Of a stretch of 64,000 nucleotides of DNA, positions 29,184-53,403 are shown in pieces. Made by a program: the position numbers and the translations under genes. The stretch is from a virus, in the IMG/VR virus record IMGVR_UViG_3300030106_006480, positions 10,143 through 74,142 of that record. The stretch is one strand, 5' to 3'. Every line of letters begins with the position of its first letter. Position 1 is the stretch's first letter. Below the pieces are notes generated by a model. That model did no database searches, was not told where the DNA came from, and saw nothing but the letters and a program-made list of their open reading frames with translations.

Positions 29184-29678
29184 ATGCTGGGAACATTAAG
29201 ACCATTAGCTGGACGCCTTCTCAAATTTGCAGGGGGTGAACAGGCTCGCGGAGTTCTTCCAGCGGCTGCAATGAGTGGCGGGTTAAACGCTCTTATCACA
29301 ACCGCTGCAACAGGAGATCCAGTTCGGGGTCTTACCTATGGTGTTGCTGACTTTTTAGGATCTTATCCAGCAACTCTTGCAGTCCGTGGGTTACGGCCTA
29401 AAGGAATGAGACGTGTAGAGGTTATGGATAAAGGTCAAGGTACTGGTAAGTTTACGAATGAACCAGTGATTTCTCGTTTAGAACTTCCTGCGAACGTAGC
29501 AGCTTCTATTTTTGCTACTGAACTTGTTGCTGCTAATGATCCTACTCTTCATCAGGATGCAACGGTTGCACAACAAAATGCACAACGAGCAGCTATTAAT
29601 TCTGACTTAGCTTTATCCAATGTCTATGCCCCTGGTACGATGTATCAACAGCTAGCAGGTCAGGGAGTTCTTTACTGA
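29184..29678 (+). CDS. Putative virion/ejection protein
   Basis: Ala/Gly-rich; late arm. Confidence 0.5.
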   Translation: MLGTLRPLAGRLLKFAGGEQARGVLPAAAMSGGLNALITTAATGDPVRGLTYGVADFLGSYPATLAVRGLRPKGMRRVEVMDKGQGTGKFTNEPVISRLELPANVAASIFATELVAANDPTLHQDATVAQQNAQRAAINSDLALSNVYAPGTMYQQLAGQGVLY

Positions 29679-30847
29679 TGAACATCTTAAAAGGATTAGG
29701 AAAGGCTTATAAGGAAGGTTTTTCTAAATCAGTAGAAAACATGGGTCTTGCAGAAGGAATTTCTTCTTCTGGTTATACCCCCCATAGTGCAGTACCAATT
29801 GTAGCTAAAGGTGCTTATGGGCAACTTGCACAACAAGGAATTGGTTTTAATACTCCTGTAAAACTTGTTGGTGCAACCACTGCAAGAGTTATGGCTGACC
29901 TTGGGCAAGATGCTACTCGTCATTTATATTGGCGTTATAACCATCCCATGGCAATTTCAGACAAGGTAGCTGAAAGTGCTTTTGGGGATCAGATGAAAAG
30001 ATTTAATGCAGCACAGCGTGGGGCGATTAGTTTGGCTACGGTTGGCTTGCCGGTCGGTGCTTCTTTAGGAACATTTGATATTACCAATGTTGGTGAATTA
30101 GGCCGACCCAAAGGTTACGCTCAATCCTATGCAGAAAAGGGTTCGGAAGACCGCAGAGAAACTTCTCAAGTTGCTCCAGAACTTTTAGAACGATTTGTCC
30201 TTGGTCGCCAAGGGCGACCTCTGAAGTTTGAAACAGCTAAAGAAGATATTCCTGATTTGACAAAAGAAAGGTATTCAAATTATATGAATTACCTTTATAA
30301 CGATAAAGGATTAGTAGGTGCAGGTCTAATTAAAGGGACAACTGAAAACCTTTATGGAGAGCCTGAACTGCGTATTGTTGGATTCCCAGTTGGTCTTCAG
30401 GCAGCTGGTGCATTGGCTGGTGGGACCCTAGCAGGTCGAGCTGCGCTCAAGACTTTACCTAAAAATGTAGTAGAGACTAAAGGTAAGAGTCAGCAAGTAA
30501 CAAGGCGTGTACCGTTGCCTGCAGGTAGTACGAGAAAGGTAGCAGCGATAGGAGGAGCTGGAGCACTGGCAGGGGCTGCAGTAGGTAAGTTAATTAACCG
30601 CGCTATTGCTACACAGGGTCAATCAGATTTACCTTCAACGCAAGAATATGGAATTACATCGAATGAAATCACATCGATGCGTAGTGGAATCACACCAGAA
30701 CGTACTTTAAATGGTAGTCCAGAAGGTGAACTTGTTATGGCTTCATTGCGTGGGTATGGGCCTTATCCTCAATTAGAAAAACTTGGTTTAAACACACCTG
30801 AAAAATTAGAGCGACGTAGGCAAGAATTAATTGCTTTGTATGATTGA
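29678..30847 (+). CDS. Putative virion/ejection protein
   Basis: Glycine-zipper hydrophobic segments. Confidence 0.5.
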   Translation: MNILKGLGKAYKEGFSKSVENMGLAEGISSSGYTPHSAVPIVAKGAYGQLAQQGIGFNTPVKLVGATTARVMADLGQDATRHLYWRYNHPMAISDKVAESAFGDQMKRFNAAQRGAISLATVGLPVGASLGTFDITNVGELGRPKGYAQSYAEKGSEDRRETSQVAPELLERFVLGRQGRPLKFETAKEDIPDLTKERYSNYMNYLYNDKGLVGAGLIKGTTENLYGEPELRIVGFPVGLQAAGALAGGTLAGRAALKTLPKNVVETKGKSQQVTRRVPLPAGSTRKVAAIGGAGALAGAAVGKLINRAIATQGQSDLPSTQEYGITSNEITSMRSGITPERTLNGSPEGELVMASLRGYGPYPQLEKLGLNTPEKLERRRQELIALYD

Positions 30848-30898
30848 AAGAGTTAGTTATAATAGAATTTAAGTACTAAAGAATTTATTTTGTAGGAT

Positions 30899-31834
30899 AT
30901 GTACCCTTATCAAGTACCGACAAGTTTGGGGGGTGCCAATGTAGGTCTCGCTTCACCGCTTACTCAGCCTTTAGATCCTTTACTTGGTAGAGGGCAAATG
31001 AATTTTCAAAGTGGAGTTAATTTAGCAGGACCGACAGCTGAAGCTGGTGAAGATTTTCTTCAAAGGATTCTTAAAGCAAATCCAGGTGCAGACCCTAAAA
31101 AAATCCAAGAAGCATTAAAAGGTGCAGGTTCTAAGGCAAAAGGAGCACTTAAGGGCGCAGTAAAACCTATGCCTTTTGCCCAAGCACGTAGCTTTGGTGC
31201 TGGTCGTCTTGGTGTTGCAGGCGGTCTTCTTGCAGGTGGTTTAACGGCAGTTGATGCTCTTCAACAGGGTCGTCCTTTAGAAGCAGCAGTTGGTGGTACT
31301 GGTGCAGCCTTAGGAACGATTGGTGGTACCGTTTTAGGAGGAATGGCTGGCGGTCCTGTCGGAGCTTTTGTTGGCGGCTCTTTAGGAAGTATGCTTGGTG
31401 GCCAAGCAGGTACTGCAGCTGAATATATTAAGCGTGATATTACAGGAGATCCTATTCGTGGAAAGGATGATCTGAAGAATGAAATCGCTAGACAGCAAAA
31501 AATTGATGAATTGGAATCTAGCCGTTATCGGAACAATTTAGGGGTTTACACAAGTGCTGTACAAGACTTACAGCAGTTTAGTAATAACCAAGAATATTTA
31601 CAGGCTCAACGGATGTTACCGTTGGTTAATAAAATGAAGAACCAAGAATTGGTTCGTCAACAGGCTCTTCTTGCAAGTCAAACACAATCTGCAGCAATGT
31701 TAGGAACACTAGCTACTGCAGGGGCCTTGGCTCAGGGACAGCAAAGGGAAACAGGTGCGATGATTCGTACCGCAATGACTTCCAACCCTTACGCTGGAGC
31801 TGTGCTTCAGGCACCTCAAATTAAGTTTGGTTGA
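30899..31834 (+). CDS. Putative ejection protein with glycine zippers
   Basis: GxxxG repeats followed by Gln-rich coiled coil. Confidence 0.55.
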   Translation: MYPYQVPTSLGGANVGLASPLTQPLDPLLGRGQMNFQSGVNLAGPTAEAGEDFLQRILKANPGADPKKIQEALKGAGSKAKGALKGAVKPMPFAQARSFGAGRLGVAGGLLAGGLTAVDALQQGRPLEAAVGGTGAALGTIGGTVLGGMAGGPVGAFVGGSLGSMLGGQAGTAAEYIKRDITGDPIRGKDDLKNEIARQQKIDELESSRYRNNLGVYTSAVQDLQQFSNNQEYLQAQRMLPLVNKMKNQELVRQQALLASQTQSAAMLGTLATAGALAQGQQRETGAMIRTAMTSNPYAGAVLQAPQIKFG

Positions 31835-32375
31835 TCTTATGGAAATTAATCTTGCTGGTAATTATGGGGAACTCCTGAAAGATTTTAATCCATTAGGAGA
31901 AACTTTTAAGTCTCTTTCAACAGGTGTAGAAGCAGCGGATAATCAAAATTTGACTGATCTATATTTTGCTTCAGAAGAAACAAAAACAAAACCTAATCCA
32001 TTAGATCCTGCAGATAAGCCTAGACCAAACCTAGCAGGCACTGGATCTCTGGCAGATATGGTTAGAGTTCTTGGCGAACTAGAAGAAAGAAAAACTAACA
32101 GGATGTTTGACCGGCTTCCTGAGTTGCTTGACTACAAAATGAAATTAGCCAGGTATATGCAACAAATTGGCAAGGAATCTGTAGAGGTTGCTTATCAAAA
32201 CCGTTTTGCATATGACAGAGCACCTCAAATGGTTGTTGATGCTTTGGCAAAACGTAATACATTTTTGCCTGAGATTGTTGCGTCACCTTTCCAATACACT
32301 GGTGGGGCTAGAGCATTAACAGCAGGCATGAGTGCCCGCGCTGGTCGTTCCGCTTATCCAACGAGGTTAACATAA
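31827..32375 (+). CDS. Hypothetical late protein
   Basis: Coupled ORF. Confidence 0.55.
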   Translation: MVDLMEINLAGNYGELLKDFNPLGETFKSLSTGVEAADNQNLTDLYFASEETKTKPNPLDPADKPRPNLAGTGSLADMVRVLGELEERKTNRMFDRLPELLDYKMKLARYMQQIGKESVEVAYQNRFAYDRAPQMVVDALAKRNTFLPEIVASPFQYTGGARALTAGMSARAGRSAYPTRLT

Positions 32376-32845
32376 TGGAATTTACATCCCCGCTCACAGG
32401 AATAGATTATTCTTATTCACAGTTTCCTGCTGATTTTGATCCTGGGTTTGATATTGATATTAAAACAGGCCCTCTTGGTGGAGATGGAATAGATTTTGGT
32501 GCTTTGTTTAAACCAGCACAAACACAACCAAGACAACAAAATACATATAATTTAATCAGTCCCCAAGCGGCCTTAGGATTAGCAACTAATCTTGGAGCCC
32601 TGGGTGCTCGTAATCAACAAATGAGTGCAATGGATGCTAGGCGAGTAGCTCTTGCTGATACGGCTTCTCAACAAGGCGCTTCTCTTGCCGGTGCTGCATT
32701 TATGAATGCATTAGATCGACAAGCACTTAATGATGTAACTGCCATGGATCTTGGTCCCCGTGGGCGTCAGTTATTCGCAAGAAAAGTACGCTCCAATACC
32801 CCTGGATCCGCGTACCAAAAGTTAGTGGCAGGTAGATTTGCATGA
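32375..32845 (+). CDS. Putative ejection protein
   Basis: Ala/Gln-rich; coupled ORF. Confidence 0.5.
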   Translation: MEFTSPLTGIDYSYSQFPADFDPGFDIDIKTGPLGGDGIDFGALFKPAQTQPRQQNTYNLISPQAALGLATNLGALGARNQQMSAMDARRVALADTASQQGASLAGAAFMNALDRQALNDVTAMDLGPRGRQLFARKVRSNTPGSAYQKLVAGRFA

Positions 32846-32885
32846 TACATACCACTGTTAAAATAAAAAATAACGAGGGGTAAAA

Positions 32886-33614
32886 ATGGGTTTTTTTGAT
32901 GGTATAGGAGACTTTCTTGGTGATATAGGGAAAAAAGCACTTCCCGCAGTAGCTGGTGCAGCAGCTAGTGCTATTCCTGGTGTTGGTCCATTCGTTGCTC
33001 CGCTTGCTGCAGGTGCAACAAATGCATTGCTTGGCGGTGGAAGCAGCGGAGGCGGAGGCGGCGGTCAGGTAGCAGGTCGTTACATGCAGACAATGCAACC
33101 TAGTTTTCAAGATTATCCAAGAACTAGTTATAAAGATTTCATGACAGGAGATCTTGATAAAGACGATTATAAAGACTTTAAAGACGATTTATCAGCAGGC
33201 GTTAGATCGGGTCAATTCAGTCCTTTTGAAGCTTACAGTATGGCTGTTGAAGCTAGAGGTAGGCCCTCTTCATTCTCTTCAAGCTTCTTAGATTACACGC
33301 CTTCTGATCAAGTGGGTTACGGTGCAGTAAAAGAAGCAGCAAAAATGTATGGTCAAAACTTAAGCGATAAACAACAAGATAAACTATTTGAACGTGCTCT
33401 TGCTTCTGGAGCACGAGACTTTGGATCGATTATGGACTTCGCTCAAAGTTCTATTGGATTAGATCCTAAATATCGTAATTATGGTCCTTTGATGAGAGAG
33501 CAAGAATTAGCCCAGGTGTATTATGGAAATATGATTCAGAATCCTACTGATCCGGGACTTAAAACTAATAAATACAGTTATAGAACTCCCACTGGTTTTC
33601 TTGCTTCTTCTTAA
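32886..33614 (+). CDS. Putative pilot/ejection protein
   Basis: MGFFDGIGDFLG...IPGVGP N-terminus and poly-Gly linker. Confidence 0.55.
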   Translation: MGFFDGIGDFLGDIGKKALPAVAGAAASAIPGVGPFVAPLAAGATNALLGGGSSGGGGGGQVAGRYMQTMQPSFQDYPRTSYKDFMTGDLDKDDYKDFKDDLSAGVRSGQFSPFEAYSMAVEARGRPSSFSSSFLDYTPSDQVGYGAVKEAAKMYGQNLSDKQQDKLFERALASGARDFGSIMDFAQSSIGLDPKYRNYGPLMREQELAQVYYGNMIQNPTDPGLKTNKYSYRTPTGFLASS

Positions 33615-33616
33615 AA

Positions 33617-34105
33617 ATGTCTATTCCTAATTATGATGATTTTATAGAATCAAGAGTGCGGATGGCCAAGCCATCTGCACGTAACGCTTATACATATCAA
33701 AAAGCTACTCAAGAATTTTTAAGTAAATACTTTGATGGTAAAGACTCTTCTGATAGCAAGAAGAGAGATGATGACAGGGATATAGATAGAGATAGAGATA
33801 GGGATAGGGATAGGAATAGGGATAGGGATAGGGACCGAAATCGGAATAACAATGATAATGATAGAGATCAGGAAAAAATAGACAGACGGAGAGAGAAACG
33901 TGAACGAGAGCAAAAAGAGCAATTTGAAAATGAAATGTCAGAAGGGAAAACTCTCACTGAAATACAACATGAACATGAGTTCAATTTATTAACTCATAGG
34001 GCAGGGATTGCCAAAGAGATTTTGGCACTTGAAAATCATTACCAAAGAGAAAAAAATGAATTGAACACAATAGTTGGACTATTGGGAGGGATTTGGAACT
34101 CATAA
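33617..34105 (+). CDS. Hypothetical protein with (D/N)R dipeptide repeat
   Basis: DRDRDRDRDRNRDRDRDRNR tract. Confidence 0.6.
   Translation: MSIPNYDDFIESRVRMAKPSARNAYTYQKATQEFLSKYFDGKDSSDSKKRDDDRDIDRDRDRDRDRNRDRDRDRNRNNNDNDRDQEKIDRRREKREREQKEQFENEMSEGKTLTEIQHEHEFNLLTHRAGIAKEILALENHYQREKNELNTIVGLLGGIWNS
33772..33846 (+). repeat. Degenerate hexamer tandem repeat (GATAGG/GATAGA)
   Basis: gatagagatagagatagggatagggataggaatagggataggg visible in sequence. Confidence 0.85.
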
Positions 34106-34154
34106 GTATTGTATAGTTTAAAATATGTAAAGAAGATTCCATTAATCATTCATC

Positions 34155-34406
34155 ATGACTCCAAAAGAGTATAGAGAGCGACTTAAGGCGATTAATAAAG
34201 ATAAGTCCCTTAGTAAAGAACAGAAGCAGAGGCTGAAGGAAGAGTTAGCACAAGCTTTCTACGGTCCCAAAGCTGACTTGGGCCAATTCAATGAACTTCT
34301 TGGCAAGCTTGAAGGTTCTAAAATGAAGCAACAGCGTCAAAGATCTGTTGAAGGTCGCCGTGACATCTTTGCAGGTGGCTTAGCTTCCATGATGACTAAC
34401 TTCTGA
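34155..34406 (+). CDS. Small late protein, paralog of the C-terminal half of 53734..54285
   Basis: Near-identical last 48 aa. Confidence 0.7.
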   Translation: MTPKEYRERLKAINKDKSLSKEQKQRLKEELAQAFYGPKADLGQFNELLGKLEGSKMKQQRQRSVEGRRDIFAGGLASMMTNF

Positions 34407-34455: not shown

Positions 34456-34752
34456 ATGCTTGATCCTACTGATAAAGATAAAAAGAAAGATCAAGATGGA
34501 GATACGTTTAGTATCACCTCTGTAGATAAAGACAAGGATAAATTTACCACTCAATCTAATCCAGCAGAAGATGATGATTACTTTGATATTGATAAGTACA
34601 GGGCTGCTGCTCAAGTAGCTTATGATTTCGGTAAACTACGTGAACAAGATCGTGGGGATGAAGTCAGAAAAACAGCAGCCCAACAAGATGCTTTCAGAAA
34701 GCAAGACGAAGCCAGGGACGCCAAGCAAGCAGCTAAAGCGTACAAGTTCTGA
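34456..34752 (+). CDS. Hypothetical charged late protein
   Basis: ORF; FDIDKYRAAAQVAY. Confidence 0.6.
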   Translation: MLDPTDKDKKKDQDGDTFSITSVDKDKDKFTTQSNPAEDDDYFDIDKYRAAAQVAYDFGKLREQDRGDEVRKTAAQQDAFRKQDEARDAKQAAKAYKF

Positions 34753-35256: not shown

Positions 35257-35448
35257 ATGAATTTAGATCCTTACCAGATGACATCGATGCTTGGACAATT
35301 AGGAGATAATAGGGAGTTTGATTTGCAATCTCTAAGCCAAGTGGCTAATCCAGATGCAGATCCAGCCATGTTTCAAGAACTGTTGAATCGTACATCACCT
35401 GATGTTGCCCCCATGGTTGAAGAAGAAATTGATGAGGATATGGAGTAA
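35257..35448 (+). CDS. Small acidic protein
   Basis: Coupled ORF. Confidence 0.5.
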   Translation: MNLDPYQMTSMLGQLGDNREFDLQSLSQVANPDADPAMFQELLNRTSPDVAPMVEEEIDEDME

Positions 35449-37979: not shown

Positions 37980-38098
37980 AACACGCAAAAAAAGATTTAA
38001 AAAAGATTTCAAAACAACTAAAAGGCAGCGCAAAAACACACGCTGGGCAAGCTAAAAAACTTGACAAGCTTGCTGGTAAGTATATGGAGAAAAAGTAA
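37976..38098 (+). CDS. Small basic protein (40 aa, absent from ORF track)
   Basis: MKHAKKDLKKISKQLKGSAKTHAGQAKKLDKLAGKYMEKK; GGAG upstream. Confidence 0.6.
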   Translation: MKHAKKDLKKISKQLKGSAKTHAGQAKKLDKLAGKYMEKK

Positions 38099-38278: not shown

Positions 38279-39004
38279 ATGCCTTTATTTAATATTGCTG
38301 GTAAATATGCAGATGCTCTTGGAAGCGGTATTCAATCCGCAGTAGCAGAAGGCTTTAATATGTTGCCAGACAGAATAAATTTATTTGGGCGTTATCTTAC
38401 AGGAGTCGGTAATAAAAACTTAAAGTTAGATCCATCAACTGAAAGAGCTTTACTTCAGGCAACCGAAAAACCTCCGACGGCCATGAGAATGGTGCCTACA
38501 TTTCCTGATGAAAAAACTGCTTTTATGGGAGACTTTTCAAAAATGACAATGGCACCTAAACCTTTTCCTGCAGCTGGACCCGGTATTCCAACCTCAGGTC
38601 CAGTATATCCATATGCAGGAGGGGATCAGGTAGCTTCTCAAACCCTTGGCAGTTTTAATGCTGAAGTTACACCTACTGCTGTACGAGTAAGAGACACTTA
38701 TGACATGGAGAATAGATCAGAAGATCCTGATTTAGTTAGCGGTCGATTCCAACCAGGTAAAGCATATAAAACTTTAAGAGGAGCTTTTGACCCAACAAAA
38801 ATTTATAATCCAAAAATTGATAAACTTTCAGACATTAGTCACAGGTTAACGCCAGAACAAAAACAGTTTGATAACTATATAAATGTAGTAGGCAAAAGCA
38901 CAACTTTTAGCCCTATGACAGATGTAGGTAGAGCTGTTATGTATGCATTGCCTATTAAGTTCAAACCTTATGAAATTGACTACACAATTCAACGGCCGCA
39001 ATAA
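38279..39004 (+). CDS. Hypothetical late protein
   Basis: TLGSF...VRDTYD motif. Confidence 0.6.
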   Translation: MPLFNIAGKYADALGSGIQSAVAEGFNMLPDRINLFGRYLTGVGNKNLKLDPSTERALLQATEKPPTAMRMVPTFPDEKTAFMGDFSKMTMAPKPFPAAGPGIPTSGPVYPYAGGDQVASQTLGSFNAEVTPTAVRVRDTYDMENRSEDPDLVSGRFQPGKAYKTLRGAFDPTKIYNPKIDKLSDISHRLTPEQKQFDNYINVVGKSTTFSPMTDVGRAVMYALPIKFKPYEIDYTIQRPQ

Positions 39005-39219: not shown

Positions 39220-41544
39220 ATGTCCACCTCAAAGGCTAGGCTTAAAGAAATTATTGACGCCTACATCGATCGCGATGGTGATGCCGGTATAGATACCGGT
39301 ATTGTTGCTGGTCATTTATCACAAATGAAACTTTTTGGTATCCGCCAAGGGGTTGAATTCTTTCCTGCACAAGATAACTTTGGTGCTCAACGCAAAGACT
39401 TTATCGATAAAGTTGTCAAATATAATCGTTTAGATACACGCCTTGATTCCATTTGGGATTATTTTATTTGTGATGGAAAAGGCCTATATTATATTCGGCC
39501 CACAAAAACAAACTACCGTTTATATTTCTTTCGCGCTCATGAGTACCGGAGCTATTACAACGTAGATGGTGAGCTTGAACAGGTTGTCATTATCTATAGT
39601 TACAAAGTTAAAGCACCTAGTCAGGGAATGTATCAAGGTGTCAATTTTAACGAAGTAGGTTTGAACCCCAATGAAAGTCAAGGGAAGAAAAAGTATATCC
39701 GACTTTCAATTAAAAAAGATGAGATTGAAGAGACACATTCAGATGCAGAAATGTCGTTCGATCTCCCCAAAGGACAATCTCCAGGGAAAACAACTAAGTT
39801 TGAAAATAGTATGGGATTTATTCCATGCGTAGAAATTATCAATAACGCAAAAGGTTTCTCCATGGACGGTAATGGAGATTTTGATGCATTAGCTGATCAT
39901 ATTGTCACCCATGACGATATGGTAAAAAATATTAGAAAAAACTTACAGTTCTTTGGTAACCCTACTTTATTATCTTCTAGGCCAAAAACTGATTTATTAG
40001 ATGTTGGCGGAGATGGCGGAGCACAACGCCCTTCTATTGCAGCTAACTCAGGCTTTGGCAGTCCAATGCCAATGAGTCGATCAACTTTCAAACAAGATCC
40101 GATTCAACGTGGAGTCGATGGTCAGCTCCGTGTACCAAGGGTTATTGCGAATTTAGAGCCAAACGATCGTGTTGGTTATATCGTTCCTGATGCTGTTAGT
40201 GGTGATCAAAACTCTATTGTCCGTCAATACCAAGAAGAAATCCGCCTTGCACTTGGTGGTGTAGATGATTCTTCTATTAGTGCTAGTGCAACTGCTACAG
40301 AGTACAAATCAATTTTTGGTCGAGTAGCAGCAACTTCGCAAAAAAAAGCTAATTCTATTTACACTCATGGACTCTGCCGTTGTTTTGAACTAATTATATT
40401 TCAAGAAGAACAGATGTTTAAAGACTCTTTGGCAGCTGCTGCCAAGATAGAAAAACCTTTACCTTTAAAAACAGGTGCATCTGATGAAGAAATAATTTCT
40501 TATAAACAAGCAGAACAGGTCTATGAACAGCAGCTAAAACAGATTATGATGGCGTGTGTTAAAGCACAAATGATTCCCCCTGGTGTCAAAGGACTGATAC
40601 CAGATGGAGACATTTCAATGCTTTGGCGCTGGATGGGGCCTGTCTATCAAGACACTACTCAAGATATTTTGAACAACTCTATTGTTGTACGAAATCTTCA
40701 AGAGTTAGGAGTTGATAGCATAGAAGCACTGAAATATCTTTTTCCATCTAAAACTGATGAGGAAAGAGCGGAAATGCTTTCGGGCTTCCCATTCAGGATG
40801 GTGAATGAGTTACAGGGAGCTTACTCTCAGTTTTCTCGTTTAATTGGGGGGATGATGCAGACTCCCCACCCTCAGTCACCGGATTTACCGATGGCTGCTG
40901 ATCCCAGACTGGATTTAACTCCATATCTGTATCGAACTTTAGAAGCATTACAAAAGGAGATGAGTTATGCAGGACGCTACCGTCCAATCGACCCCACAGA
41001 TGAGCCAAGCACCAGCGGTAGCTCCCAGCAGCTACGTGGCAGCTCCAGCTCAACAAGCACCGGCTCAACAGAGTCCAGTGGGGACGTATTACCCTCAAGC
41101 AGTGCCGAACGTGGCACCACAGGGGACTACCAGTTACCAATCAAGCCCTACTCAGTCCGTCCCCCAATCCCAACCGGCGGGGGATCAGAACAGCCCATGG
41201 GAGTCGGCATTCAATCGAGTAGTGGGTCTTCTGGGCAGCCCGGTTCAATCCCCGTTCCAGGGTCAACCATCACAGGCCCCGGCGCAGACACCGGTTCAGT
41301 ATTCCCCGGCCAATTACGGTCAGGCATCAAGCCAGACTATGCCCGCATCGGCTCCGCAGACCTCATATCCCAGCCAGGGTTACTCGGACAACTCTTCCCA
41401 AACTTACTCGGTCAGCTCGTTAGCGGACGTGGCGGACCTGGTGGGGTGGAGCCCGGAAAGCCGGATGGTGATCGAAAACTACGGGACAGAAGCTCCGGCG
41501 ATTCTAAACCAGTACGCTCTAAACCTGGAAAGCGTCGTAGATAG
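39220..41544 (+). CDS. Portal protein with long disordered C-terminal extension
   Basis: Lies between terL and scaffold/capsid; MGFIPCVEI.N...GDF...L motif typical of SPP1-like portals. Confidence 0.75.
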   Translation: MSTSKARLKEIIDAYIDRDGDAGIDTGIVAGHLSQMKLFGIRQGVEFFPAQDNFGAQRKDFIDKVVKYNRLDTRLDSIWDYFICDGKGLYYIRPTKTNYRLYFFRAHEYRSYYNVDGELEQVVIIYSYKVKAPSQGMYQGVNFNEVGLNPNESQGKKKYIRLSIKKDEIEETHSDAEMSFDLPKGQSPGKTTKFENSMGFIPCVEIINNAKGFSMDGNGDFDALADHIVTHDDMVKNIRKNLQFFGNPTLLSSRPKTDLLDVGGDGGAQRPSIAANSGFGSPMPMSRSTFKQDPIQRGVDGQLRVPRVIANLEPNDRVGYIVPDAVSGDQNSIVRQYQEEIRLALGGVDDSSISASATATEYKSIFGRVAATSQKKANSIYTHGLCRCFELIIFQEEQMFKDSLAAAAKIEKPLPLKTGASDEEIISYKQAEQVYEQQLKQIMMACVKAQMIPPGVKGLIPDGDISMLWRWMGPVYQDTTQDILNNSIVVRNLQELGVDSIEALKYLFPSKTDEERAEMLSGFPFRMVNELQGAYSQFSRLIGGMMQTPHPQSPDLPMAADPRLDLTPYLYRTLEALQKEMSYAGRYRPIDPTDEPSTSGSSQQLRGSSSSTSTGSTESSGDVLPSSSAERGTTGDYQLPIKPYSVRPPIPTGGGSEQPMGVGIQSSSGSSGQPGSIPVPGSTITGPGADTGSVFPGQLRSGIKPDYARIGSADLISQPGLLGQLFPNLLGQLVSGRGGPGGVEPGKPDGDRKLRDRSSGDSKPVRSKPGKRRR

Positions 41545-41947
41545 TGCTGTTGCTTGGGCTGACAGTGCATTAGAGACTCTGCAAGGTTATGCAGAATTTG
41601 CTGTTAATGAGCACCAAGAGAATCTCACTTATAACGAGATGCTCACCAACCCCGACATTCTGTCTGATTACACACTGGAATTCTTTGGTCCTAATGGTCC
41701 TTATCCTGTGTATGAAAATGAGCAGCAATTAGAAACAGTTGGACATCCGACTGCACCTGCTCAACAGACTGGCTATCAGAATATTCCTGGTATGCCTGCT
41801 CCTCCTGCAGCGGCTGCTCCTGAGCAACCTGCAGATTTCTGGGGTTCCTTTAAGGCACAAATGGATCGTGATCCCAGCCAAGCTTGGCGTCTTGTGAACC
41901 AAGCCTCACCTCAAGCGATGGCTAATAAGCTCTTCGTTATGGAGTGA
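40967..41947 (+). CDS. Capsid scaffolding protein (candidate)
   Basis: Q/P/S-rich N-terminus, GGAG Shine-Dalgarno at about 40956, upstream of the capsid gene. Confidence 0.6.
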   Translation: MQDATVQSTPQMSQAPAVAPSSYVAAPAQQAPAQQSPVGTYYPQAVPNVAPQGTTSYQSSPTQSVPQSQPAGDQNSPWESAFNRVVGLLGSPVQSPFQGQPSQAPAQTPVQYSPANYGQASSQTMPASAPQTSYPSQGYSDNSSQTYSVSSLADVADLVGWSPESRMVIENYGTEAPAILNQYALNLESVVDSAVAWADSALETLQGYAEFAVNEHQENLTYNEMLTNPDILSDYTLEFFGPNGPYPVYENEQQLETVGHPTAPAQQTGYQNIPGMPAPPAAAAPEQPADFWGSFKAQMDRDPSQAWRLVNQASPQAMANKLFVME

Positions 41948-41950: not shown

Positions 41951-42493
41951 ATGAATGCACAATTTCTTAGGTATGCAATACCGGCTGCTCTTGGCGCAGG
42001 AGCTGGTTTAACCAAAGGATACCAAGAAGGCGGTGTGGGTGGTGCCCTAGGTGGTGCCGCCCTTGGCGCTGGATTGGGTGCTGCAGGTATGGGTTTAGCT
42101 CGTGCAAGTTTTAGTCAATCAGGTCCTTTAGCTGGAAAGTTTGTGGGATTGATTGATGATGCAGGTAGCATGGTAGGTAAAGGTGCAAGAAAAGCATCTG
42201 AAGCTTTGAATAAAGCTGGTGCAGGAAATGCAGCATCCTTAGCAGATGATTTAGCAAATCTTGTAACACCACAATACGGATCTCGCACTGCAGGTGAAGC
42301 TTTGCAACGACAAAGGCAAATCACTAATGTTGGTTCAACAGCTCTTGGTTCCCTTGGAGCTTTAGGAGGTGCTGGACTAACTAAAGGAATTATTGGAGCA
42401 ATGAATCCTGCGATTGATCCAGAAATACCTGGTTCAAGTAACACCCAAGGTGCTCGTATGAGTATGCAAGCTTATCCCGGTATGTATGCCTAA
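41951..42493 (+). CDS. Gly/Ala-rich virion protein
   Basis: Glycine zippers. Confidence 0.55.
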   Translation: MNAQFLRYAIPAALGAGAGLTKGYQEGGVGGALGGAALGAGLGAAGMGLARASFSQSGPLAGKFVGLIDDAGSMVGKGARKASEALNKAGAGNAASLADDLANLVTPQYGSRTAGEALQRQRQITNVGSTALGSLGALGGAGLTKGIIGAMNPAIDPEIPGSSNTQGARMSMQAYPGMYA

Positions 42494-42587: not shown

Positions 42588-43751
42588 GTGTTTTTAGATA
42601 CCGACTTTCCAAAAATTCTGGGTGCGGAACTGTATCGTCCCCACCCTGCTTATGTGTGCGAAATGGCCGTTGAGCCTGTAGTTGTTCACGACTTCACCTC
42701 TCAACCTGGCCAAACCGTACAGCTTGATCGTTATAAGTTCTGGGGAACCCCAGGTACTAAGGACAGCCGTGAGCGCGTGGCTGACCAAACGATTGGTACT
42801 GCTAATAGCCGTAACATCACCAAAGAGAAGGTGTTGGTTGTGCTTAAAGAGTACACCGGTCCTGCGGATCCGGGTGACCCTACTCAGCCTTCAACCTTTA
42901 AGATTGCCCGTGAAACTCTGATCACTGCTCAGCGTCTGCTTCTTGATACAGGCAACCTGAACATGTTCCACCAGAGCATTGGTTCTCTGACCCTGTTGGA
43001 TGACTACCGCCGTTGGCGTGATCGCGTCTTCATTGACGAACTTTCTAAAGCTGAAGCAAATGGTGCTGCTTCAACTTCTCAAGGTGGTTATTTCTTTGCT
43101 GGCAGCAAAACCAAAGATGCTTCCGGTCGTATTTCTTATACCGCTGCTGAGTATGGTGATCAAATTCAACAGTTCTCTGTTCGCACTGACCTGCTGAATG
43201 TTGTGAAGGACATGCGTAAGCGCAACGTCCCCACTTTTGCTGATGGTTTGTATCGCTGTATCTGCGATCCCACCTTCATGCTGCACCTGCGTCGTGACTC
43301 CGACTTCCGTGAGATTGCACGTTACAGCGGCAATCCTGGTCAGGGCATGTACATGGGTAACCCCATGATGCCTAACAACTCCAGCTTCTTCATGGGTCCC
43401 CAAGCTGGTCAGGGTTATTTCCTGGCTGGTGAGCCTGTGATGCCTACTGGTGTGCAATTTGAAGGCGTTAAGTTCTTCGAGTCAACCAACTTCCCGAGCA
43501 AGAATATCACTACCTCTTTCGATGCTGGTTCAACCTATGCTTCTAAGGAAGTCGCTCAAGGCTTCTTCTTCGGTCCTCAGTCAATCGGTGTTGGCATCGG
43601 TGGCCCGAATGCTCAAGTCCTGATTAACAATAATGATGACTTCTCACGCTTCATTATTCTTATCTGGCAACTGTATGCTGGTTTTGAGATTCTGAATAAG
43701 GACTTCGTGACCACTGCCTTTAGCTACGTCCAAGACGACGGTAGTGTTTGA
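42588..43751 (+). CDS. Major capsid protein
   Basis: 387 aa, strong GGAGGA SD, strongly biased codons, PGQTVQLDRY and G.FEGVKFFES HK97-fold (N4-gp56-like) pattern. Confidence 0.85.
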   Translation: MFLDTDFPKILGAELYRPHPAYVCEMAVEPVVVHDFTSQPGQTVQLDRYKFWGTPGTKDSRERVADQTIGTANSRNITKEKVLVVLKEYTGPADPGDPTQPSTFKIARETLITAQRLLLDTGNLNMFHQSIGSLTLLDDYRRWRDRVFIDELSKAEANGAASTSQGGYFFAGSKTKDASGRISYTAAEYGDQIQQFSVRTDLLNVVKDMRKRNVPTFADGLYRCICDPTFMLHLRRDSDFREIARYSGNPGQGMYMGNPMMPNNSSFFMGPQAGQGYFLAGEPVMPTGVQFEGVKFFESTNFPSKNITTSFDAGSTYASKEVAQGFFFGPQSIGVGIGGPNAQVLINNNDDFSRFIILIWQLYAGFEILNKDFVTTAFSYVQDDGSV

Positions 43752-43790: not shown

Positions 43791-44594
43791 ATGTCCTATC
43801 TTTCGACTAAGAAAATCTTTCCAGGTAACTGGAATGAGCCTCTGAATGGTTGGTACAAAAATATTGATACCAACGACAGCGGCACTAACGATGCTTCCAA
43901 GGCTGGCCCGACTTCTGTTCTGGCCGTCCCTGGTTATCGTTATTTCCAGCAGCGTGGTTATGCCAAAGTTACCGTCACTTCTGGTGATGGTGGTGCTGCT
44001 TCTCTTGATGTGATCGTTCCTTCTCCTTATCGGAATGATGACACTCGGACCGATATCACCGGCATGGTGATTTCTGGTTCTGCAACTTTACCTGCTTACG
44101 GTTACCGTGCCACGGTTTCTGTTGCTTCCGGTTGGGGTGATGGTCGTGTTGCTTCTGGTGTGTATAACGCCACTGGTAATGTGATTTCATTCGGTCGTGA
44201 CAATAGCGGCAGCCCTGTTTCCGCTGGCGGCGTAGGAGAAGGTGTGGTTCAAGCCAACCTTGCTTCTACCGTTTCTGGTTCACAAGCTGGTGAAATCTAC
44301 TATGCAGGTGGTTCTGCTGCTTACAGTACTGTGCCCTTCTTAACAGCCACTGGAGCTGCTGGTGTTACTGCTGCCAAGGTTTACAAAGAACTGACTGCTG
44401 CAACCACCTTTAAGGTGTACTCCAAGGCTTCTGGCAACGCTACTTCCACTGCTGGTGGTGTCTACATCTCTAGCGATGACAAGTCTGCCAACCGCTTTGG
44501 TTATATCGTTGTTGAAATCAGCTATGTCCAACCTGATGACGCTGCTGGTTATGAAGACATCGAGCAATACCTTGACAATCGTATTGTCAGCTGA
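43791..44594 (+). CDS. Abundant structural protein (capsid decoration or tail subunit)
   Basis: Same codon bias as the capsid gene; G/S/T/A-rich beta protein. Confidence 0.6.
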   Translation: MSYLSTKKIFPGNWNEPLNGWYKNIDTNDSGTNDASKAGPTSVLAVPGYRYFQQRGYAKVTVTSGDGGAASLDVIVPSPYRNDDTRTDITGMVISGSATLPAYGYRATVSVASGWGDGRVASGVYNATGNVISFGRDNSGSPVSAGGVGEGVVQANLASTVSGSQAGEIYYAGGSAAYSTVPFLTATGAAGVTAAKVYKELTAATTFKVYSKASGNATSTAGGVYISSDDKSANRFGYIVVEISYVQPDDAAGYEDIEQYLDNRIVS

Positions 44595-50184: not shown

Positions 50185-50334
50185 AGAAAAGAGGCGTACT
50201 TCTTTAAGTTACGCATTAAAAATATAAAGTCAAGTTCTTCTTGCACGATTTCAGCTTTACGTTAGTTTTTTGTTTAGTAATGTAAAGTGTCTTTGGTTAG
50301 GGCATTTTAGAATATATCAACAGCAGAATAGCGT

Positions 50335-50691: not shown

Positions 50692-52733
50692 TGGCTGCTC
50701 TAACTAGTCTTAATTTTGGAAAACTTTCTGAAGAAGAAGCTCAGCAATTATTAAATCAATTTATTCATGGAGGAGCGTTAACCAGCCTGGTCCAGGAACA
50801 AACTGACCCTGAGAAAGAAGAAGCTTTCAGAGTACTTGCTGCTAATGTCCTTAAGAGAACAACAGAGAAACTAACACAAGAACAGAGGAAGCATCAAGGA
50901 CTTCAGATGATGTTAGATATGCCTGGTTATTCTGACGTTGTTAATCAAAGTGCTGATATTACCCAACAACTTTTAGGAGACACAGGGGTTGGAGGATACT
51001 TAAAAATGGCGGGAATGGGAGACCTGGAGAAAAAATTTAAATCAAGTATAGATAAAAGCTTAGGATTAGGAAACAATGTAATTGTAAATTGGCAAAACTG
51101 GTTTGAAGAAGAATTAGAAGATGAATATTTAAAAGACTTTGATAAATTTGAATCATTAGAAGAAAGAAAAGATTTAATTGGGATTATTAAACGTGCAAAC
51201 GATAGAGGAGCATCTTTATGGAATCTTGATTTAGATAAACTAGGTGATCCAGACTATAAGCCTGAATTAACAGAAGCCTTTTTAAATGCAGCTGGTTTTG
51301 ATAATCAAGAAGAGTTTATAGAATCTTTAGATAAAAATTTATTAAAAGGTGAACTTACTGAAGAAGAAATAGAAAAATTAGATAAAACAGATATTAGAGA
51401 TTTTAAAAGATTGATGGCAGATCAATTGTATTCAAAATATACAGCTGCTATTGAGAAAAGAAATCAAAACTTAGGTCCCGATGAAACTCCTGTGCAAGCT
51501 ATGGCATTGCAAGAATTTCTCCAACAAAATTTTCCAACAGCTATAGGACAAAATGAAGACGGAACGGATTATGTCATTGGCAGTCCTAATATAGATATAG
51601 AAGGATTACAAAATCAAATTAATGAAAAGATCACAAAGTTAGAAGAAGAGTTAGGCAGTGAAAGTTATCAGATTGAATACAATGGAAAAGAATACACATT
51701 TGATCCAGAGTTTACAAGAAATTTTATAGCTGATTATTTAAGGCCACGTTTTGATCATTCAAAGTCAATGGCAGAATTTGTAGAATATTTAGGTAATGAA
51801 GATACAGGAGAAAATCTTTTAACTACTCAAACAGTATCTACAGCTTTAAAAGAGTACGGAGAAAAGATGGCGCAAACATATATTGATTATCTACAAACGG
51901 AGGGTTCAGAAGAAGGTGCTGCTTTTACACTAGAAGAATTGAAAAACCAAATTCAACAAGATTTACTCGACAGAGTTAAAGAAGATAAACAAGGTTTTTC
52001 GGGTAACGTCTTTATGAATTTTGTGGGACCAGATAAATATGTAGACCTTGTTTTAGATAAACTAGGAGTTAAAGATCCAACAAGTGAAGAAGGACAAGAA
52101 GCTTTAAAAGAGATGGGGCTATCTGGTGAAGGAAGTTTAGATGACTTAAAAAATACTTTAAAAGAACAATTGACAGGTTTAGATGCATATGAAATAAGAG
52201 AAAAAATTAAAAAGCTTGTAAAAGAAGGTAAAGTGCCTGCTCAAATGGCTTTAGGTGTTGAATATATTCAAAGAGAAGGAGACAAAGATTTTGGCAAAGA
52301 AAAACAAGATGAAACTCAAAATGCTATTTATGAAATGTTTAAAGAATCAGGATATCAAGGAGACGCAGAAGACTTATTTAATGAAGAGTTTATGGAAGGA
52401 TTTGATTCAAATTTTTTAAGTCAAGGTCTTTCAGGTGAGTTTAAATTAGACACATCAAGCCCAGGAGGAATGTTGGCTTCCACTCAAAATTTAATGGGAA
52501 GTTTGGGAAATGATGATGACCTTTATAATGTAAGTAAAGCAAATAAAACTCAAGACATTGCCAATTATTACAAAACATTTGGCAAAGATAGAAACAAATC
52601 CAAAGCTAATGATTTCCTGGGAGGCGATGATTTAATGAATGAAATATCAGGATTAGCAGGATTTGCTGGAATAGATCTGAGTTCTGGAACAGGAACAGGG
52701 TTTGGTAACTTTGGTCAGGCAGGTTACTTCTAA
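50691..52733 (+). CDS. Large acidic helical protein (putative internal virion protein)
   Basis: 680 aa; E/D/K-rich; Gly-rich C-terminus. Confidence 0.5.
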   Translation: MAALTSLNFGKLSEEEAQQLLNQFIHGGALTSLVQEQTDPEKEEAFRVLAANVLKRTTEKLTQEQRKHQGLQMMLDMPGYSDVVNQSADITQQLLGDTGVGGYLKMAGMGDLEKKFKSSIDKSLGLGNNVIVNWQNWFEEELEDEYLKDFDKFESLEERKDLIGIIKRANDRGASLWNLDLDKLGDPDYKPELTEAFLNAAGFDNQEEFIESLDKNLLKGELTEEEIEKLDKTDIRDFKRLMADQLYSKYTAAIEKRNQNLGPDETPVQAMALQEFLQQNFPTAIGQNEDGTDYVIGSPNIDIEGLQNQINEKITKLEEELGSESYQIEYNGKEYTFDPEFTRNFIADYLRPRFDHSKSMAEFVEYLGNEDTGENLLTTQTVSTALKEYGEKMAQTYIDYLQTEGSEEGAAFTLEELKNQIQQDLLDRVKEDKQGFSGNVFMNFVGPDKYVDLVLDKLGVKDPTSEEGQEALKEMGLSGEGSLDDLKNTLKEQLTGLDAYEIREKIKKLVKEGKVPAQMALGVEYIQREGDKDFGKEKQDETQNAIYEMFKESGYQGDAEDLFNEEFMEGFDSNFLSQGLSGEFKLDTSSPGGMLASTQNLMGSLGNDDDLYNVSKANKTQDIANYYKTFGKDRNKSKANDFLGGDDLMNEISGLAGFAGIDLSSGTGTGFGNFGQAGYF

Positions 52734-53032
52734 TGGCAGACAAACGAAAGAAAGCAGCTAAAGCAGCTCGACTACATAAAGATAAAATGGCTTGTAATAA
52801 GCCTAAAAAGACTGCAAATCATCCAACTAAGTCACATGTTGTTAAAGCCTGTGCAAACGGTAAAGAAAAAATTATTAGGTTTGGTCAACAAGGAGTTAAA
52901 GGAGCAGGAAAAAATCCTAAATCAGCTAAAGATAAAGCACGTAGGAAGTCATACTATGCGCGTCATAATGCACAAGATAGTAAGCCAAGTATAATGTCTG
53001 CTCGTTATTGGTCTCATAAGGTGAAGTGGTAA
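52733..53032 (+). CDS. Conserved basic viral protein (DUF5754-like)
   Basis: HPTKSHVV...KIIRFGQQG...ARRKSYYARH...SARYWSHKVKW. Confidence 0.65.
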   Translation: MADKRKKAAKAARLHKDKMACNKPKKTANHPTKSHVVKACANGKEKIIRFGQQGVKGAGKNPKSAKDKARRKSYYARHNAQDSKPSIMSARYWSHKVKW

Positions 53033-53403
53033 TGTTACTTGCAGGACGTTTTGGAGATTTAATTAAAGATGCCCCTGAAGTATATCAAGGGTATCAACTA
53101 GCAGGAGGTGATACTGCCTCAGAGTTACTTGCAAGAATAAAACCATTAGCACAGTCAAGAGGCTTCCTTGGTTCAAGTATCACACCAGGATTACAAATGA
53201 TGGGTTTTAATATTGATGATGTAATGTATGATCGGTTCTCTCCATCAGTAATGTCTGCACTCGTACCCAGCACATCCGATAGCGATAGAAGAGCTTTCCA
53301 AACATTCAGAGGAGCAGAACCACCAAAAAATCAAGCTAGAAAATATTTAGATCAAAATGTTGCTAGATTTTTATCAAGATCTCCTTCAGCAGGAATGATT
53401 TAA
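53026..53403 (+). CDS. Hypothetical late protein
   Basis: Coupled ORF (likely ATG at 53032); LAGRF at N-terminus. Confidence 0.55.
   Translation: MVMLLAGRFGDLIKDAPEVYQGYQLAGGDTASELLARIKPLAQSRGFLGSSITPGLQMMGFNIDDVMYDRFSPSVMSALVPSTSDSDRRAFQTFRGAEPPKNQARKYLDQNVARFLSRSPSAGMI

What the first reader, a model, noticed from the sequence alone, without database searches (positions are those of the whole stretch)
29184..53403. Recurring short peptide motif [LIVY]-A-G-[KRN]-[YF] in unrelated late proteins: candidate capsid-targeting or maturation signal
Seen: LAGNY (31827, N-term), VAGRF (32375, C-term), VAGRY (32886, after poly-Gly), LAGKY (37976, C-term), IAGKY (38279, N-term), YAGRY (portal, at the start of its extension), LAGKF (41951), LAGRF (53026, N-term). 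Near-matches are LAGRL (29184, N-term) and LAGRV (25768). I found no strict match in the early/enzymatic proteins, the capsid protein or the fibres. The motif is often terminal or in a linker, in proteins that otherwise share no similarity. Inference: a docking tag that loads cargo into the prohead (compare the T4 capsid-targeting sequence), or a protease site.
Basis: partly seen in the sequence, partly recalled or inferred. Interest (0 to 1): 0.8.

Follow-up and report, generated by a model that had tools for sequence, protein, structure and literature searches.

The report
Portable LAGKY address tag, cyanophage proteins
A five-residue peptide (Leu-Ala-Gly-Lys-Tyr) is reused at the ends or linkers of dozens of otherwise unrelated small late proteins in a widespread group of cyanobacterial viruses, and a sister group uses a different version, so it is most likely a shared address label read by one common partner during virus assembly, although no experiment has yet shown binding or cutting.

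Summary
The window is an S-EIV1-like cyanophage. It has 8 strict matches, all in late + strand genes, against 0.19 expected. An unbiased scan picks [LIVM]-A-G-[KR]-[FYW] as the top pentapeptide.

In 239 related loci the motif (consensus LAGKY) occurs in 32 BLAST-unlinked protein families, against a median of 3 for permuted controls. Half the instances lie within about 12 residues of a terminus. Codon usage shows selection on the peptide, not the DNA. Two families always carry it (g41951, g37976). Others have a looser LAG element at the same terminus.

A sister clade (MCP 65-69% identical) lacks LAGKY but has its own tag, R-[ML]-A-G-[QED]-x-[FL]. That pattern fits a co-diverging peptide and receptor pair.

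No protease or modifying enzyme was found. The portal's YAGRY is probably spurious: it overlies the ribosome-binding site and start codon of an overlapping gene.

Best reading: a portable virion-targeting tag, like the T4 CTS or encapsulin targeting peptides in how it works, but not a member of either. A cleavage site remains a serious rival.

The scan has noted analogous tags on other phage DNA, but not this motif or this lineage.

The parts
31851..31865 (+). LAGNY, residues 9-13 of g31827 (31827-32375; residues 5-9 if the ATG at 31839 is the start). N-terminal tag.
   Evidence: About half of the 26 family members have an LAG-type element in the first 30 residues. The S-EIV1 positional ortholog has PAGKY at residues 9-13.
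32825..32839 (+). VAGRF, one residue before the stop of g32375 (32375-32845). C-terminal tag.
   Evidence: About 24 of 29 family members have [LMVR]AG[RSTQ..] within the last 25 residues, followed by a conserved MFGG-type end.
33069..33083 (+). VAGRY, residues 62-66 of g32886 (32886-33614), directly after a Gly/Ala-rich N-terminal segment and a poly-Gly linker.
   Evidence: Optional in this family: 5 of 38 members have a tag after the linker.
38069..38083 (+). LAGKY, residues 32-36 of the 40-aa Lys-rich protein g37976 (37976-38098). C-terminal tag.
   Evidence: 19 of 19 family members carry [LIV]AGKY, always 1-4 residues before the stop.
38294..38308 (+). IAGKY, residues 6-10 of g38279 (38279-39004). 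N-terminal tag.
   Evidence: A7 and G8 are invariant in all 9 members, including those only 32% identical overall. Residues 1-18 have pLDDT below 50 in the AF2 model.
42128..42142 (+). LAGKF, residues 60-64 of g41951 (41951-42493). This is the universal carrier, encoded between the scaffold-position gene and the MCP.
   Evidence: 74 of 78 family members have the strict motif. The 4 exceptions are 3 contig-edge fragments and one LAGKH. The motif is N-terminal in 24 members and at about residue 52 in 50. In the AF2 model it sits at the start of the one confident helix, 61-88. No homolog in the sister clade.
53038..53052 (+). LAGRF, residues 5-9 of g53026 (53026-53403). N-terminal tag on an orphan protein.
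   Evidence: A singleton family among all loci. Its extended N-terminus resembles that of g31827 (LAGRFGDLIKD against LAGNYGELLKD).
29205..29219 (+). LAGRL, residues 8-12 of g29184 (29184-29678). N-terminal variant with Leu at position 5.
   Evidence: Nearly all 23 family members start with an [LI]AG[RKSLT]L-type element, including S-EIV1 (RLAGRLAER).
27181..27195 (+). LAGRV, residues 472-476 of the 872-aa protein g25768 (25768-28386). Internal near-match of uncertain status.
   Evidence: Only 2 of 19 family members have a strict internal motif, and at other positions.
40966..40980 (+). YAGRY in the putative portal g39220 (39220-41544). Probably not a true tag.
   Evidence: Tyr at position 1 is seen nowhere else. 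Codons TAT GCA contain the ATG of ORF 40967-41947, which is preceded by AAGGAG plus 7 nt in 108 of 108 relatives. The substitution pattern in the overlap follows the other frame.
40967..41947 (+). Scaffold-position ORF (326 aa) overlapping the portal tail by 578 nt. A candidate partner of the tag, along with the genes listed below.
42588..43751 (+). Major capsid protein (387 aa). Candidate receptor, but with no fixed charge reversal between the clades.
   Evidence: phrog_1357 major head protein, E=2e-14. 88-93% identical within the LAGKY clade and 65-69% in the sister clade..
43791..44594 (+). g43791 (267 aa), a conserved unknown protein directly after the MCP. A weak candidate receptor.
   Evidence: Three fixed charge reversals between the clades (R50E, D84R, E242R), but it is also the most diverged core protein. 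No family or atlas match.

Best explanation
LAGKY (phi-A-G-[K/R]-[Y/F]) is a portable short linear address tag. It sits on flexible termini or linkers of many small, fast-evolving, mutually unrelated late proteins. A single conserved partner in the assembling particle reads it (the capsid shell, the portal, the scaffold-position protein or g43791), and this recruits the carriers into the virion as internal, ejection or accessory proteins. Binding is the primary function, not cleavage. The tag and its reader have co-diverged: the sister clade uses R-[M/L]-A-G-[Q/E/D]-x-[F/L].

Shown: enrichment, peptide-level selection, terminal bias, portability across families, and clade specificity.

Inferred: that the partner is a virion protein, that the carriers are packaged, and that the tag is not removed.
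For: 1. Enrichment. The window has 8 hits against 0.19 expected, and the motif is the top 5-mer in an unbiased scan.
2. Independent families. 32 BLAST-unlinked families carry it, against a median of 3 for permuted motifs; family-level p=5e-21.
3. Sharp specificity. Ala and Gly each appear in 32 families, against 5 or fewer for any substitute; L, K/R and Y/F dominate their positions; the flanks are weak.
4. Peptide-level selection. Codon usage at the motif equals background, and 112 of 132 encoding 15-mers are distinct.
5. Terminal bias. 48% of instances are terminal against 22% expected, and 18 of 32 families have a terminal instance. Tags occur at N-termini (MKLAGKY, MLAGKY), at C-termini (PLAGKYM-stop), or after poly-Gly linkers.
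6. Structural context. The tag lies in a low-confidence N-terminus (g38279) or at a loop-to-helix junction (g41951).
7. Nature of the carriers. They are the fastest-evolving proteins of the module, with no BLAST hit to S-EIV1, and they include hypervariable accessory genes between terminase and portal. This mirrors the diverse T4 internal proteins that share only a CTS (PMC3012670).
8. Clade specificity. The sister clade has its own A-G-centred tag, and each tag is at background in the other clade.
9. No protease found. The MCP and the scaffold-position protein lack the motif.
10. No modifiable side chain. K/R and Y/F interchange, so no modifiable side chain is invariant. That fits recognition in a groove.
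Against: There is no direct evidence that any carrier is in the virion, and no proteomics was available. No receptor was identified. The MCP shows no fixed charge reversal between the clades, and the reversals in the portal (E411K) and g43791 are only weak leads. In several families (g32886, g31827, g32375) most orthologs lack the strict tag, so it is not essential for those proteins. S-EIV1 has only 2-4 tags. The K/R-then-aromatic pattern would also suit a protease. Most late proteins are ORFans, so a novel protease cannot be excluded.
Confidence: 0.45

Rival explanations
1. The motif is the recognition and cleavage site of a maturation protease, either a phage ORFan or a host enzyme. N-terminal, C-terminal or linker-flanked segments would be trimmed at phi-A-G-K/R|Y/F or phi-A-G|X. 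This could happen with or without a preceding targeting role, as in the T4 CTS followed by gp21 cleavage.
For: The pattern is sharp and has a fixed register, with a basic residue followed by an aromatic one. The invariant A-G recalls, from my own knowledge and untested here, the AG|X sites of poxvirus core proteins and the (M/I/L)XGX-G sites of adenovirus. In g41951 and g32886 the motif follows a 50-60-residue Gly/Ala-rich segment that a third of g41951 relatives lack entirely (MKLAGKY starts). That looks like a removable propeptide. A clade-specific change of motif fits a changed protease specificity as well as a changed receptor.
Against: Pfam and PHROGs find no protease domain anywhere in the window. 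The phage has a separate scaffold-position gene and no protease gene between portal and MCP. The MCP and the scaffold-position protein have no site. Many sites would release only 1-6 residues (MLAGKY, LAGKYM-stop). The 50-residue segment before the motif in g41951 is the best-conserved part of that protein.
Confidence: 0.25
2. The motif is an intrinsic functional element that each protein needs by itself, for instance a helix-start or amphipathic membrane- or DNA-contacting element of ejection proteins. It would not be an address read by one common protein partner.
For: AF2 places the motif at the start of helices. Many carriers are Gly/Ala-rich and membrane-like (g29184, g41951, g32886) or Lys-rich and probably DNA-binding (g37976). 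g30899 in the same block matches tape-measure or tail-lysin glycine-rich regions. The g29184 family uses an LAG-R-L amphipathic variant.
Against: A generic helix cap or membrane element would not be expected to have invariant A-G with a fixed K/R-aromatic register across 32 unrelated families. It also would not be expected to switch wholesale to another version in a sister clade infecting similar hosts. It occurs equally at extreme C-termini with only 1-4 residues after it, where no helix can follow.
Confidence: 0.15
3. The motif is a sequon for covalent modification by a phage enzyme, for instance by the glycosyltransferase and sugar-nucleotide cluster at the left end of the window.
For: The window encodes two glycosyltransferase-like proteins, a GDP-mannose 4,6-dehydratase and a DegT-type aminotransferase.
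Against: No position has an invariant modifiable side chain: K and R interchange, Y and F interchange, and L, A and G are inert. In the sister-clade tag, position 5 takes Q, S, E or D interchangeably, so it too has no invariant acceptor residue.
Confidence: 0.05
4. The recurrence is an artefact of chance, composition, hidden homology between the carriers, or a repeated DNA element at gene boundaries.
For: The motif was defined after the fact. Carriers are Ala/Gly-rich. Many instances lie at gene boundaries. Some 'families' may be undetected distant paralogs.
Against: Local-composition shuffles, permuted-order motifs, off-frame controls and minus-strand controls all fail to reproduce it. The unbiased scans recover it as the top hit. 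Codons are not conserved. Placement at the N-terminus, C-terminus or a linker is incompatible with simple paralogy.
Confidence: 0.03

Closest known systems
Capsid targeting sequence (CTS) of phage T4 internal proteins IPI-III and Alt (PMC3012670, PMC5694885)
   Same: A short conserved peptide is the only feature shared by a diverse, fast-evolving set of small late proteins. It is usually terminal. Its presumed role is to bring the proteins into the assembling head.
   Different: The T4 CTS is a strictly N-terminal propeptide of 10-20 residues. It binds the scaffolding core and is removed by the gp21 protease after Glu. LAGKY has 5 residues, occurs at N-termini, C-termini and linkers, has no Glu-type cleavage motif, and comes with no gp21-like protease. 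The phage lineage is unrelated to T4.
Encapsulin Family 1 targeting peptides (GSLxIGSLK, TVGSLRR, GGDLGIRK; PMC10960027)
   Same: A very short peptide of hydrophobic, small or Gly, and basic residues sits on a flexible terminus of unrelated cargo proteins. It is not cleaved. In encapsulins it is read by a pocket on the inner face of an HK97-fold shell, with a Lys-Asp salt bridge. One obligate carrier (g41951) is encoded next to the shell gene.
   Different: The sequence differs (an aromatic at position 5 and A-G instead of G-S-L). The shell here is a DNA-filled phage capsid. Binding to the MCP has not been shown, and the MCP has no fixed charge reversal between the two tag clades.
Prohead-protease cleavage motifs of T4 and of the giant phages phiKZ and SPN3US ((L/I)-x-E, S/A/G-x-E; PMC5694885)
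   Same: A short degenerate motif recurs in many head proteins, often near termini.
   Different: Those motifs end in Glu, are found in the MCP and portal as well, and come with a recognisable protease gene. None of this holds here.
Other shared terminal tags noted by this scan (unchecked AI notes e1-5895544, e1-6003345, e1-5340821)
   Same: Recurring short tags on unrelated late proteins of uncultured phages, read as CTS-like.
   Different: The sequences and lineages differ. Most are T4-like phages whose tags end in the protease motif. None is the LAGKY / RMAG[QED] pair.

Membership tests
T4-type capsid targeting sequence (CTS) | N-terminal propeptide of 10-20 residues | tested here: not met
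   The core has 5 residues with weak flanks. Instances are N-terminal, C-terminal and internal.
T4-type capsid targeting sequence (CTS) | Ends in the prohead-protease motif (cleavage after Glu) and is removed by a gp21-type protease | tested here: not met
   There is no conserved Glu after the motif. No protease family was found by Pfam or PHROGs. Cleavage itself is not testable here.
T4-type capsid targeting sequence (CTS) | Shared by otherwise unrelated, diverse small head proteins | tested here: met
   32 BLAST-unlinked families carry it. The carriers have no hits to S-EIV1.
T4-type capsid targeting sequence (CTS) | Sufficient to package a foreign protein into the head | not testable with these tools
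   Needs a tag-fusion experiment.
Encapsulin Family 1 targeting peptide | Short conserved peptide on a flexible terminus or linker of cargo | tested here: met
   Terminal bias of 48% against 22% expected. Poly-Gly linker in g32886. Low pLDDT at the N-terminus of g38279.
Encapsulin Family 1 targeting peptide | Consensus of the GSLxIGSLK or TVGSLRR type | tested here: not met
   The consensus here is L-A-G-K-Y.
Encapsulin Family 1 targeting peptide | Binds a pocket on the inner face of the HK97-fold shell protein | not testable with these tools
   Only single-chain folding was available. The MCP has no fixed charge reversal between the clades, which neither supports nor excludes binding.
Encapsulin Family 1 targeting peptide | Cargo gene adjacent to the shell gene | tested here: inconclusive
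   g41951, the universal carrier, is directly upstream of the MCP. The other carriers are scattered over 24 kb.
Prohead-protease substrate site | Protease gene in the head module | tested here: not met
   None found by Pfam or PHROGs. The fold search of g38279 and the atlas search of g43791 gave nothing. ORFans remain, so absence is not proven.
Prohead-protease substrate site | Sites present in the core substrates (MCP, scaffold, portal) | tested here: not met
   The MCP and the scaffold-position protein have none. The portal's YAGRY is explained by an overlapping gene start.

The most novel reading that the evidence does not exclude
A tailed phage lineage loads its capsid with cargo the way encapsulins do. 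An uncleaved 5-residue peptide docks diverse proteins directly onto a conserved virion protein, with no protease involved. Sister clades carry orthogonal tag and receptor pairs (LAGKY against RMAG[QED]xF). That would give a minimal, programmable protein-packaging code in an abundant aquatic phage group, and a functional link between phage capsids and encapsulin cargo loading.
Probability: 0.25. Interest if true: 0.82.

Novelty: new variant of a known kind. Interest (0 to 1): 0.68.

Why it matters
S-EIV1-like phages are cosmopolitan, and almost all of their structural genes are unannotated. A common tag would at once nominate dozens of ORFan families as virion cargo. It would explain how hypervariable accessory genes get packaged, and it would identify a 5-residue handle for loading foreign proteins into a phage particle.

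The clade-specific switch of the tag offers a natural experiment for finding the receptor by co-variation. If no protease is involved, this would extend the capsid-targeting principle beyond T4-like phages and bring it mechanistically close to encapsulin cargo loading. The lineage has a cultured member (S-EIV1 on Synechococcus PCCC-A2c), so the idea is directly testable.

Tried and rejected
1. DNA-level repeat, RBS or boundary sequence. Rejected: synonymous codons vary, 112 of 132 encoding 15-mers are distinct, and codon usage equals background.
2. Compositional artefact. Rejected by local shuffles, permuted motifs, off-frame controls and minus-strand controls.
3. Lipobox (L-A-G-C). Rejected: there is no Cys and no preceding signal peptide; this rests on the sequence plus my own knowledge.
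4. Modification sequon. Unlikely, because no modifiable residue is invariant.
5. Search for a protease. Pfam and PHROGs on 50 proteins, 30 of them in the late block, found none. The g38279 AF2 model (pLDDT 61) had no fold match. The atlas search of g43791 was uninformative.
6. Solved-structure relatives of the portal and MCP. None.
7. S-EIV1 paper for virion proteomics. Not held in the library.
Distant MCP contexts were sought with the search for related loci instead. Three single-protein scans gave one locus, and one alignment was too divergent to use. A tighter alignment gave the sister clade.
9. Receptor by fixed charge reversals. Inconclusive.
10. L240 (MCP 31% identical). No tag seen, but a single locus has no power.
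11. Peptide and receptor docking.

Full report
**What the window is.** The window is 64 kb of a 74,142-bp single-contig genome. Its only cultured relative in the phage collection is Synechococcus phage S-EIV1 (MCP 84% identical at the protein level). Genes from 25768 to about 56700 form a tightly packed + strand late block. It holds the terminase large subunit (35730-37256), a 774-aa 'virion structural protein' in the portal position (39220-41544; phrog_20475), a scaffold-position ORF (40967-41947), the major head protein (42588-43751; phrog_1357), an SLT lysozyme and an endolysin. Almost everything else is an ORFan.

**Checking the observation.** A six-frame scan finds nine strict matches to [LIVY]AG[KRN][YF]. 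The ninth (10054) is in a non-coding frame. The curated late proteome (46 proteins, 9,911 aa) has 8 hits against a mean of 0.19 in 5,000 within-protein shuffles. The remaining 10,368 aa have none.

The motif was defined after the fact, so I ran an unbiased scan of all reduced-alphabet 4-mers and 5-mers, counting proteins rather than occurrences. [LIVM]-A-G-[KR]-[FYW] is the single most enriched 5-mer (6 proteins, 0.15 expected, p=1.6e-8). None of 200 global or 15-residue-local shuffles produced any k-mer as extreme. The ten instances use different synonymous codons.

**Relatives.** Anchoring on the MCP, the terminase and g47896 gave 238 viral-contig loci, making 239 with S-EIV1. Their + strand genes hold 178 strict [LIVM]AG[KR][YF] hits in 707,306 aa of unique proteins, against 7.9 +/- 2.1 in shuffles. 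By contrast, minus-strand ORFs hold 2 hits in 509,639 aa, and non-selected + strand ORFs hold 4 in 299,612 aa. Most of those look like mis-called true carriers.

Shared descent inflates raw counts, so I clustered all proteins by generous single-linkage BLAST (E<1e-3) into 666 families. The motif is in 32 of them. The 120 permutations of the same five residue classes have a median of 3. The only high ones are overlapping registers of the same motif (21), and the next best reaches 7. A family-level unbiased scan again puts it first (33 families, 3.55 expected, p=5e-21).

**Anatomy of the motif.**
- Family-weighted frequencies are L 82% (I, V), A 100%, G 100%, K 69% / R 31%, and Y 74% / F 26%. 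The flanks are weak apart from some hydrophobic enrichment 3-4 residues downstream.
- A and G were not imposed by me. Every substitute at those positions occurs in 5 families or fewer, against 32.
- Codon usage at each motif position equals the background for that amino acid, and 112 of 132 encoding 15-mers are distinct. Selection is therefore on the peptide.
- 48% of instances lie within 12 residues of the N-terminus or 10 of the C-terminus, against 22% expected. 18 of 32 families have a terminal instance. Typical forms are MKLAGKY..., MLAGKY......PLAGKYM-stop and ...KLAGKYMNK-stop.

**Conservation in orthologs is of two kinds.**
- Some families always carry the tag. In the g41951 family 74 of 78 members have it; the exceptions are three edge fragments and one LAGKH. 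The 40-aa Lys-rich g37976 family has it in 19 of 19, always C-terminal. In the g38279 family A7 and G8 are invariant in all 9, even at 32% overall identity. Several short N-terminally tagged families also carry it throughout.
- In the upstream block the strict form is sporadic, but a looser LAG element sits at the same terminus in most members. It is the N-terminal LAG[RKS]L in the g29184 family, an LAG-type element in about half of the g31827 family, and [LMVR]AG[RSTQ] within the last 25 residues in about 24 of 29 members of the g32375 family.
- In the g32886 family the tag is optional (5 of 38).
- S-EIV1 itself has MGLLAGKY at the start of the g41951 positional ortholog, PAGKY at residues 9-13 of the g31827 positional ortholog, and RLAGRL plus IAGKY in the g29184 ortholog.

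The carriers are the fastest-evolving proteins of the module; none has a BLASTP hit in S-EIV1. They include accessory genes of the hypervariable island between terminase and portal.

**Structural context.** In the AF2 model of g41951 (63-sequence alignment, mean pLDDT 65) there are two Gly/Ala-rich helices and then a loop. The motif (60-64) lies at the start of the only confident helix, 61-88. In relatives that begin MKLAGKY, that helix simply starts the protein. In g38279 (pLDDT 61) residues 1-18, which hold the tag, are below pLDDT 50. That model has no fold match.

**The portal instance.** YAGRY has a Tyr at position 1 that no other family uses. Its codons TAT GCA contain the ATG of ORF 40967-41947. 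AAGGAG plus 7 nt precedes that ATG in all 108 relatives, and both frames stay open in all 101 complete ones. Nucleotide diversity by portal codon position is as follows:

| Region | Position 1 | Position 2 | Position 3 |
|---|---|---|---|
| Upstream (portal frame only) | 0.18 | 0.08 | 0.42 |
| Overlap (40967-41544) | 0.33 | 0.17 | 0.20 |
| Downstream (alternative frame only) | 0.47 | 0.19 | 0.13 |

From the ATG onward, selection therefore follows the alternative frame. The invariance of YAGRY is explained by that gene's start region, so I do not count it as a tag.

**A sister clade with a different tag.** A profile scan of metagenome contigs returned 80 loci whose MCP is 65-69% identical to ours.

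These loci share terminase, portal, the scaffold-position gene, MCP, g43791, g44637, g45082, g47097, g47896 and the Lys-rich small proteins. They have no g41951 homolog. LAGKY is at background there: 6 hits in 263,408 aa, and 3 families, no more than its permutations.

The unbiased family-level scan of this clade instead puts [KR]-[LIVM]-A-G-[NQ] and [KR]-[LIVM]-A-G-[DE] first. The extended form is R-[M/L]-A-G-[Q/S/E/D]-x-[F/L]. It is in 17 of 320 families against a permuted median of 2, with A and G again dominant (17 families each, against 5 or fewer for any substitute). Some families have it N-terminally in all members, for example MAIRIAGERF in 12 of 12. This second motif is at background in the first clade.

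So the A-G core is kept. Position 4 changes from basic to acidic or amide, a basic residue appears before the hydrophobe, and the aromatic moves one place. That is what co-divergence of a peptide with a single reader would look like.

There is one in the portal (E411K), three in g43791 (R50E, D84R, E242R), and one each in g44637 and g47896. g43791 is also the most diverged of these proteins, so this is only a lead.

**Mechanism.** Recognition by one common partner is well supported. I favour docking over cleavage (0.45 against 0.25) for four reasons:
- No protease is detectable in the window.
- The assembly module has a separate scaffold-position gene and no protease gene between portal and MCP.
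- The MCP and the scaffold-position protein lack the site.
- Many tags are 1-6 residues from a terminus, so cutting there would achieve little.

Against that, most late genes are ORFans, and a basic-then-aromatic pair is a plausible scissile bond. The 50-residue Gly/Ala segment before the tag in g41951 and g32886 could be a propeptide, although in g41951 it is the best-conserved part of the protein. A covalent-modification sequon is unlikely, because no position keeps a modifiable side chain, despite a glycosyltransferase cluster at 975-4767.

**Comparison with known systems.** Functionally the closest are two:
- The T4 capsid targeting sequence is the only feature shared by diverse internal proteins. 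It binds the scaffolding core and is then removed by gp21 (PMC3012670, PMC5694885).
- Encapsulin targeting peptides are short, uncleaved peptides of hydrophobic, Gly and basic residues. A pocket on the inside of an HK97-fold shell reads them (PMC10960027).

LAGKY fails the defining features of the T4 CTS (N-terminal propeptide, Glu-type cleavage motif, gp21-type protease) and the sequence consensus of encapsulin peptides. It works like them but is a member of neither. Earlier notes of this scan describe analogous tags in other phages, mostly T4-like ones with a protease motif. Those notes are unchecked, and they concern other sequences and lineages.

**Verdict.** This is a real, strongly selected, portable pentapeptide tag with a clade-specific counterpart. 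It is most likely a virion-targeting address. Its mechanism and receptor are unproven, and it is testable in S-EIV1.

Noticed in passing
window 40967-41544 (portal ORF 39220-41544 and ORF 40967-41947): There is a conserved 578-nt overlap of two long ORFs in different frames. The second ORF's ATG lies inside the portal codons Y-A and follows AAGGAG plus 7 nt in 108 of 108 relatives. Both frames stay open in 101 of 101 complete relatives. The codon-position diversity pattern in the overlap follows the second frame, so the Ser/Gly/Pro-rich portal tail of about 190 aa appears to be overprinted on the N-terminal third of the scaffold-position gene. The region has raised GC (0.476).
   Followed up: yes
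window 39007-39216, 35448-35690, 37692-37979, 34456-34752 (C-termini); 52733-53032 (N-terminus); about residues 16-25 of the terminase (35730-37256): A second recurrent terminal element, K-A-A-[KS]-A-A-[KR]-x-[YHF]-K, occurs on Lys-rich small proteins (36 of 39, 31 of 60 and 18 of 52 family members) and near the terminase N-terminus. These families also exist in the sister clade. It may be a DNA- or portal-binding tail.
   Followed up: partly
window 34155-34406 and 53734-54285: Two genes 19 kb apart share a near-identical 43-residue C-terminal domain (...GPKAD.GQFN.LL.KLEGSKMKQQRQRSVEGRRDI.AGGLASMM.NF). S-EIV1 and other relatives carry one to three copies.
   Followed up: no
L001 (S-EIV1) 24080-26620 against window 35730-37256: The S-EIV1 terminase is 846 aa against 508 aa here. 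The alignment breaks at residue 200, with about 330 extra residues in S-EIV1. That is consistent with an intein or another insertion that this genome lacks.
   Followed up: no
window 975-4767: A sugar-nucleotide and glycosyltransferase cluster: two CAP59/GT2-like transferases, a GDP-mannose 4,6-dehydratase and a DegT-type aminotransferase. A ferritin-like gene lies next to it at 5112-5663.
   Followed up: no
window 41951-42493 (g41951 family) and 32375-32845 (g32375 family): Besides the tag, the g41951 family has a nearly invariant C-terminal IDPE-PGSSNT element (P157 and E158 are invariant). The g32375 family ends in a conserved MFGG-type C-terminus.
   Followed up: partly
window 33617-34105: A 162-aa protein with a long (D/N)R dipeptide repeat (RDRDRDRDRNRDRDRDRNR) followed by a Glu/Lys-rich coiled-coil-like segment.
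   Followed up: no
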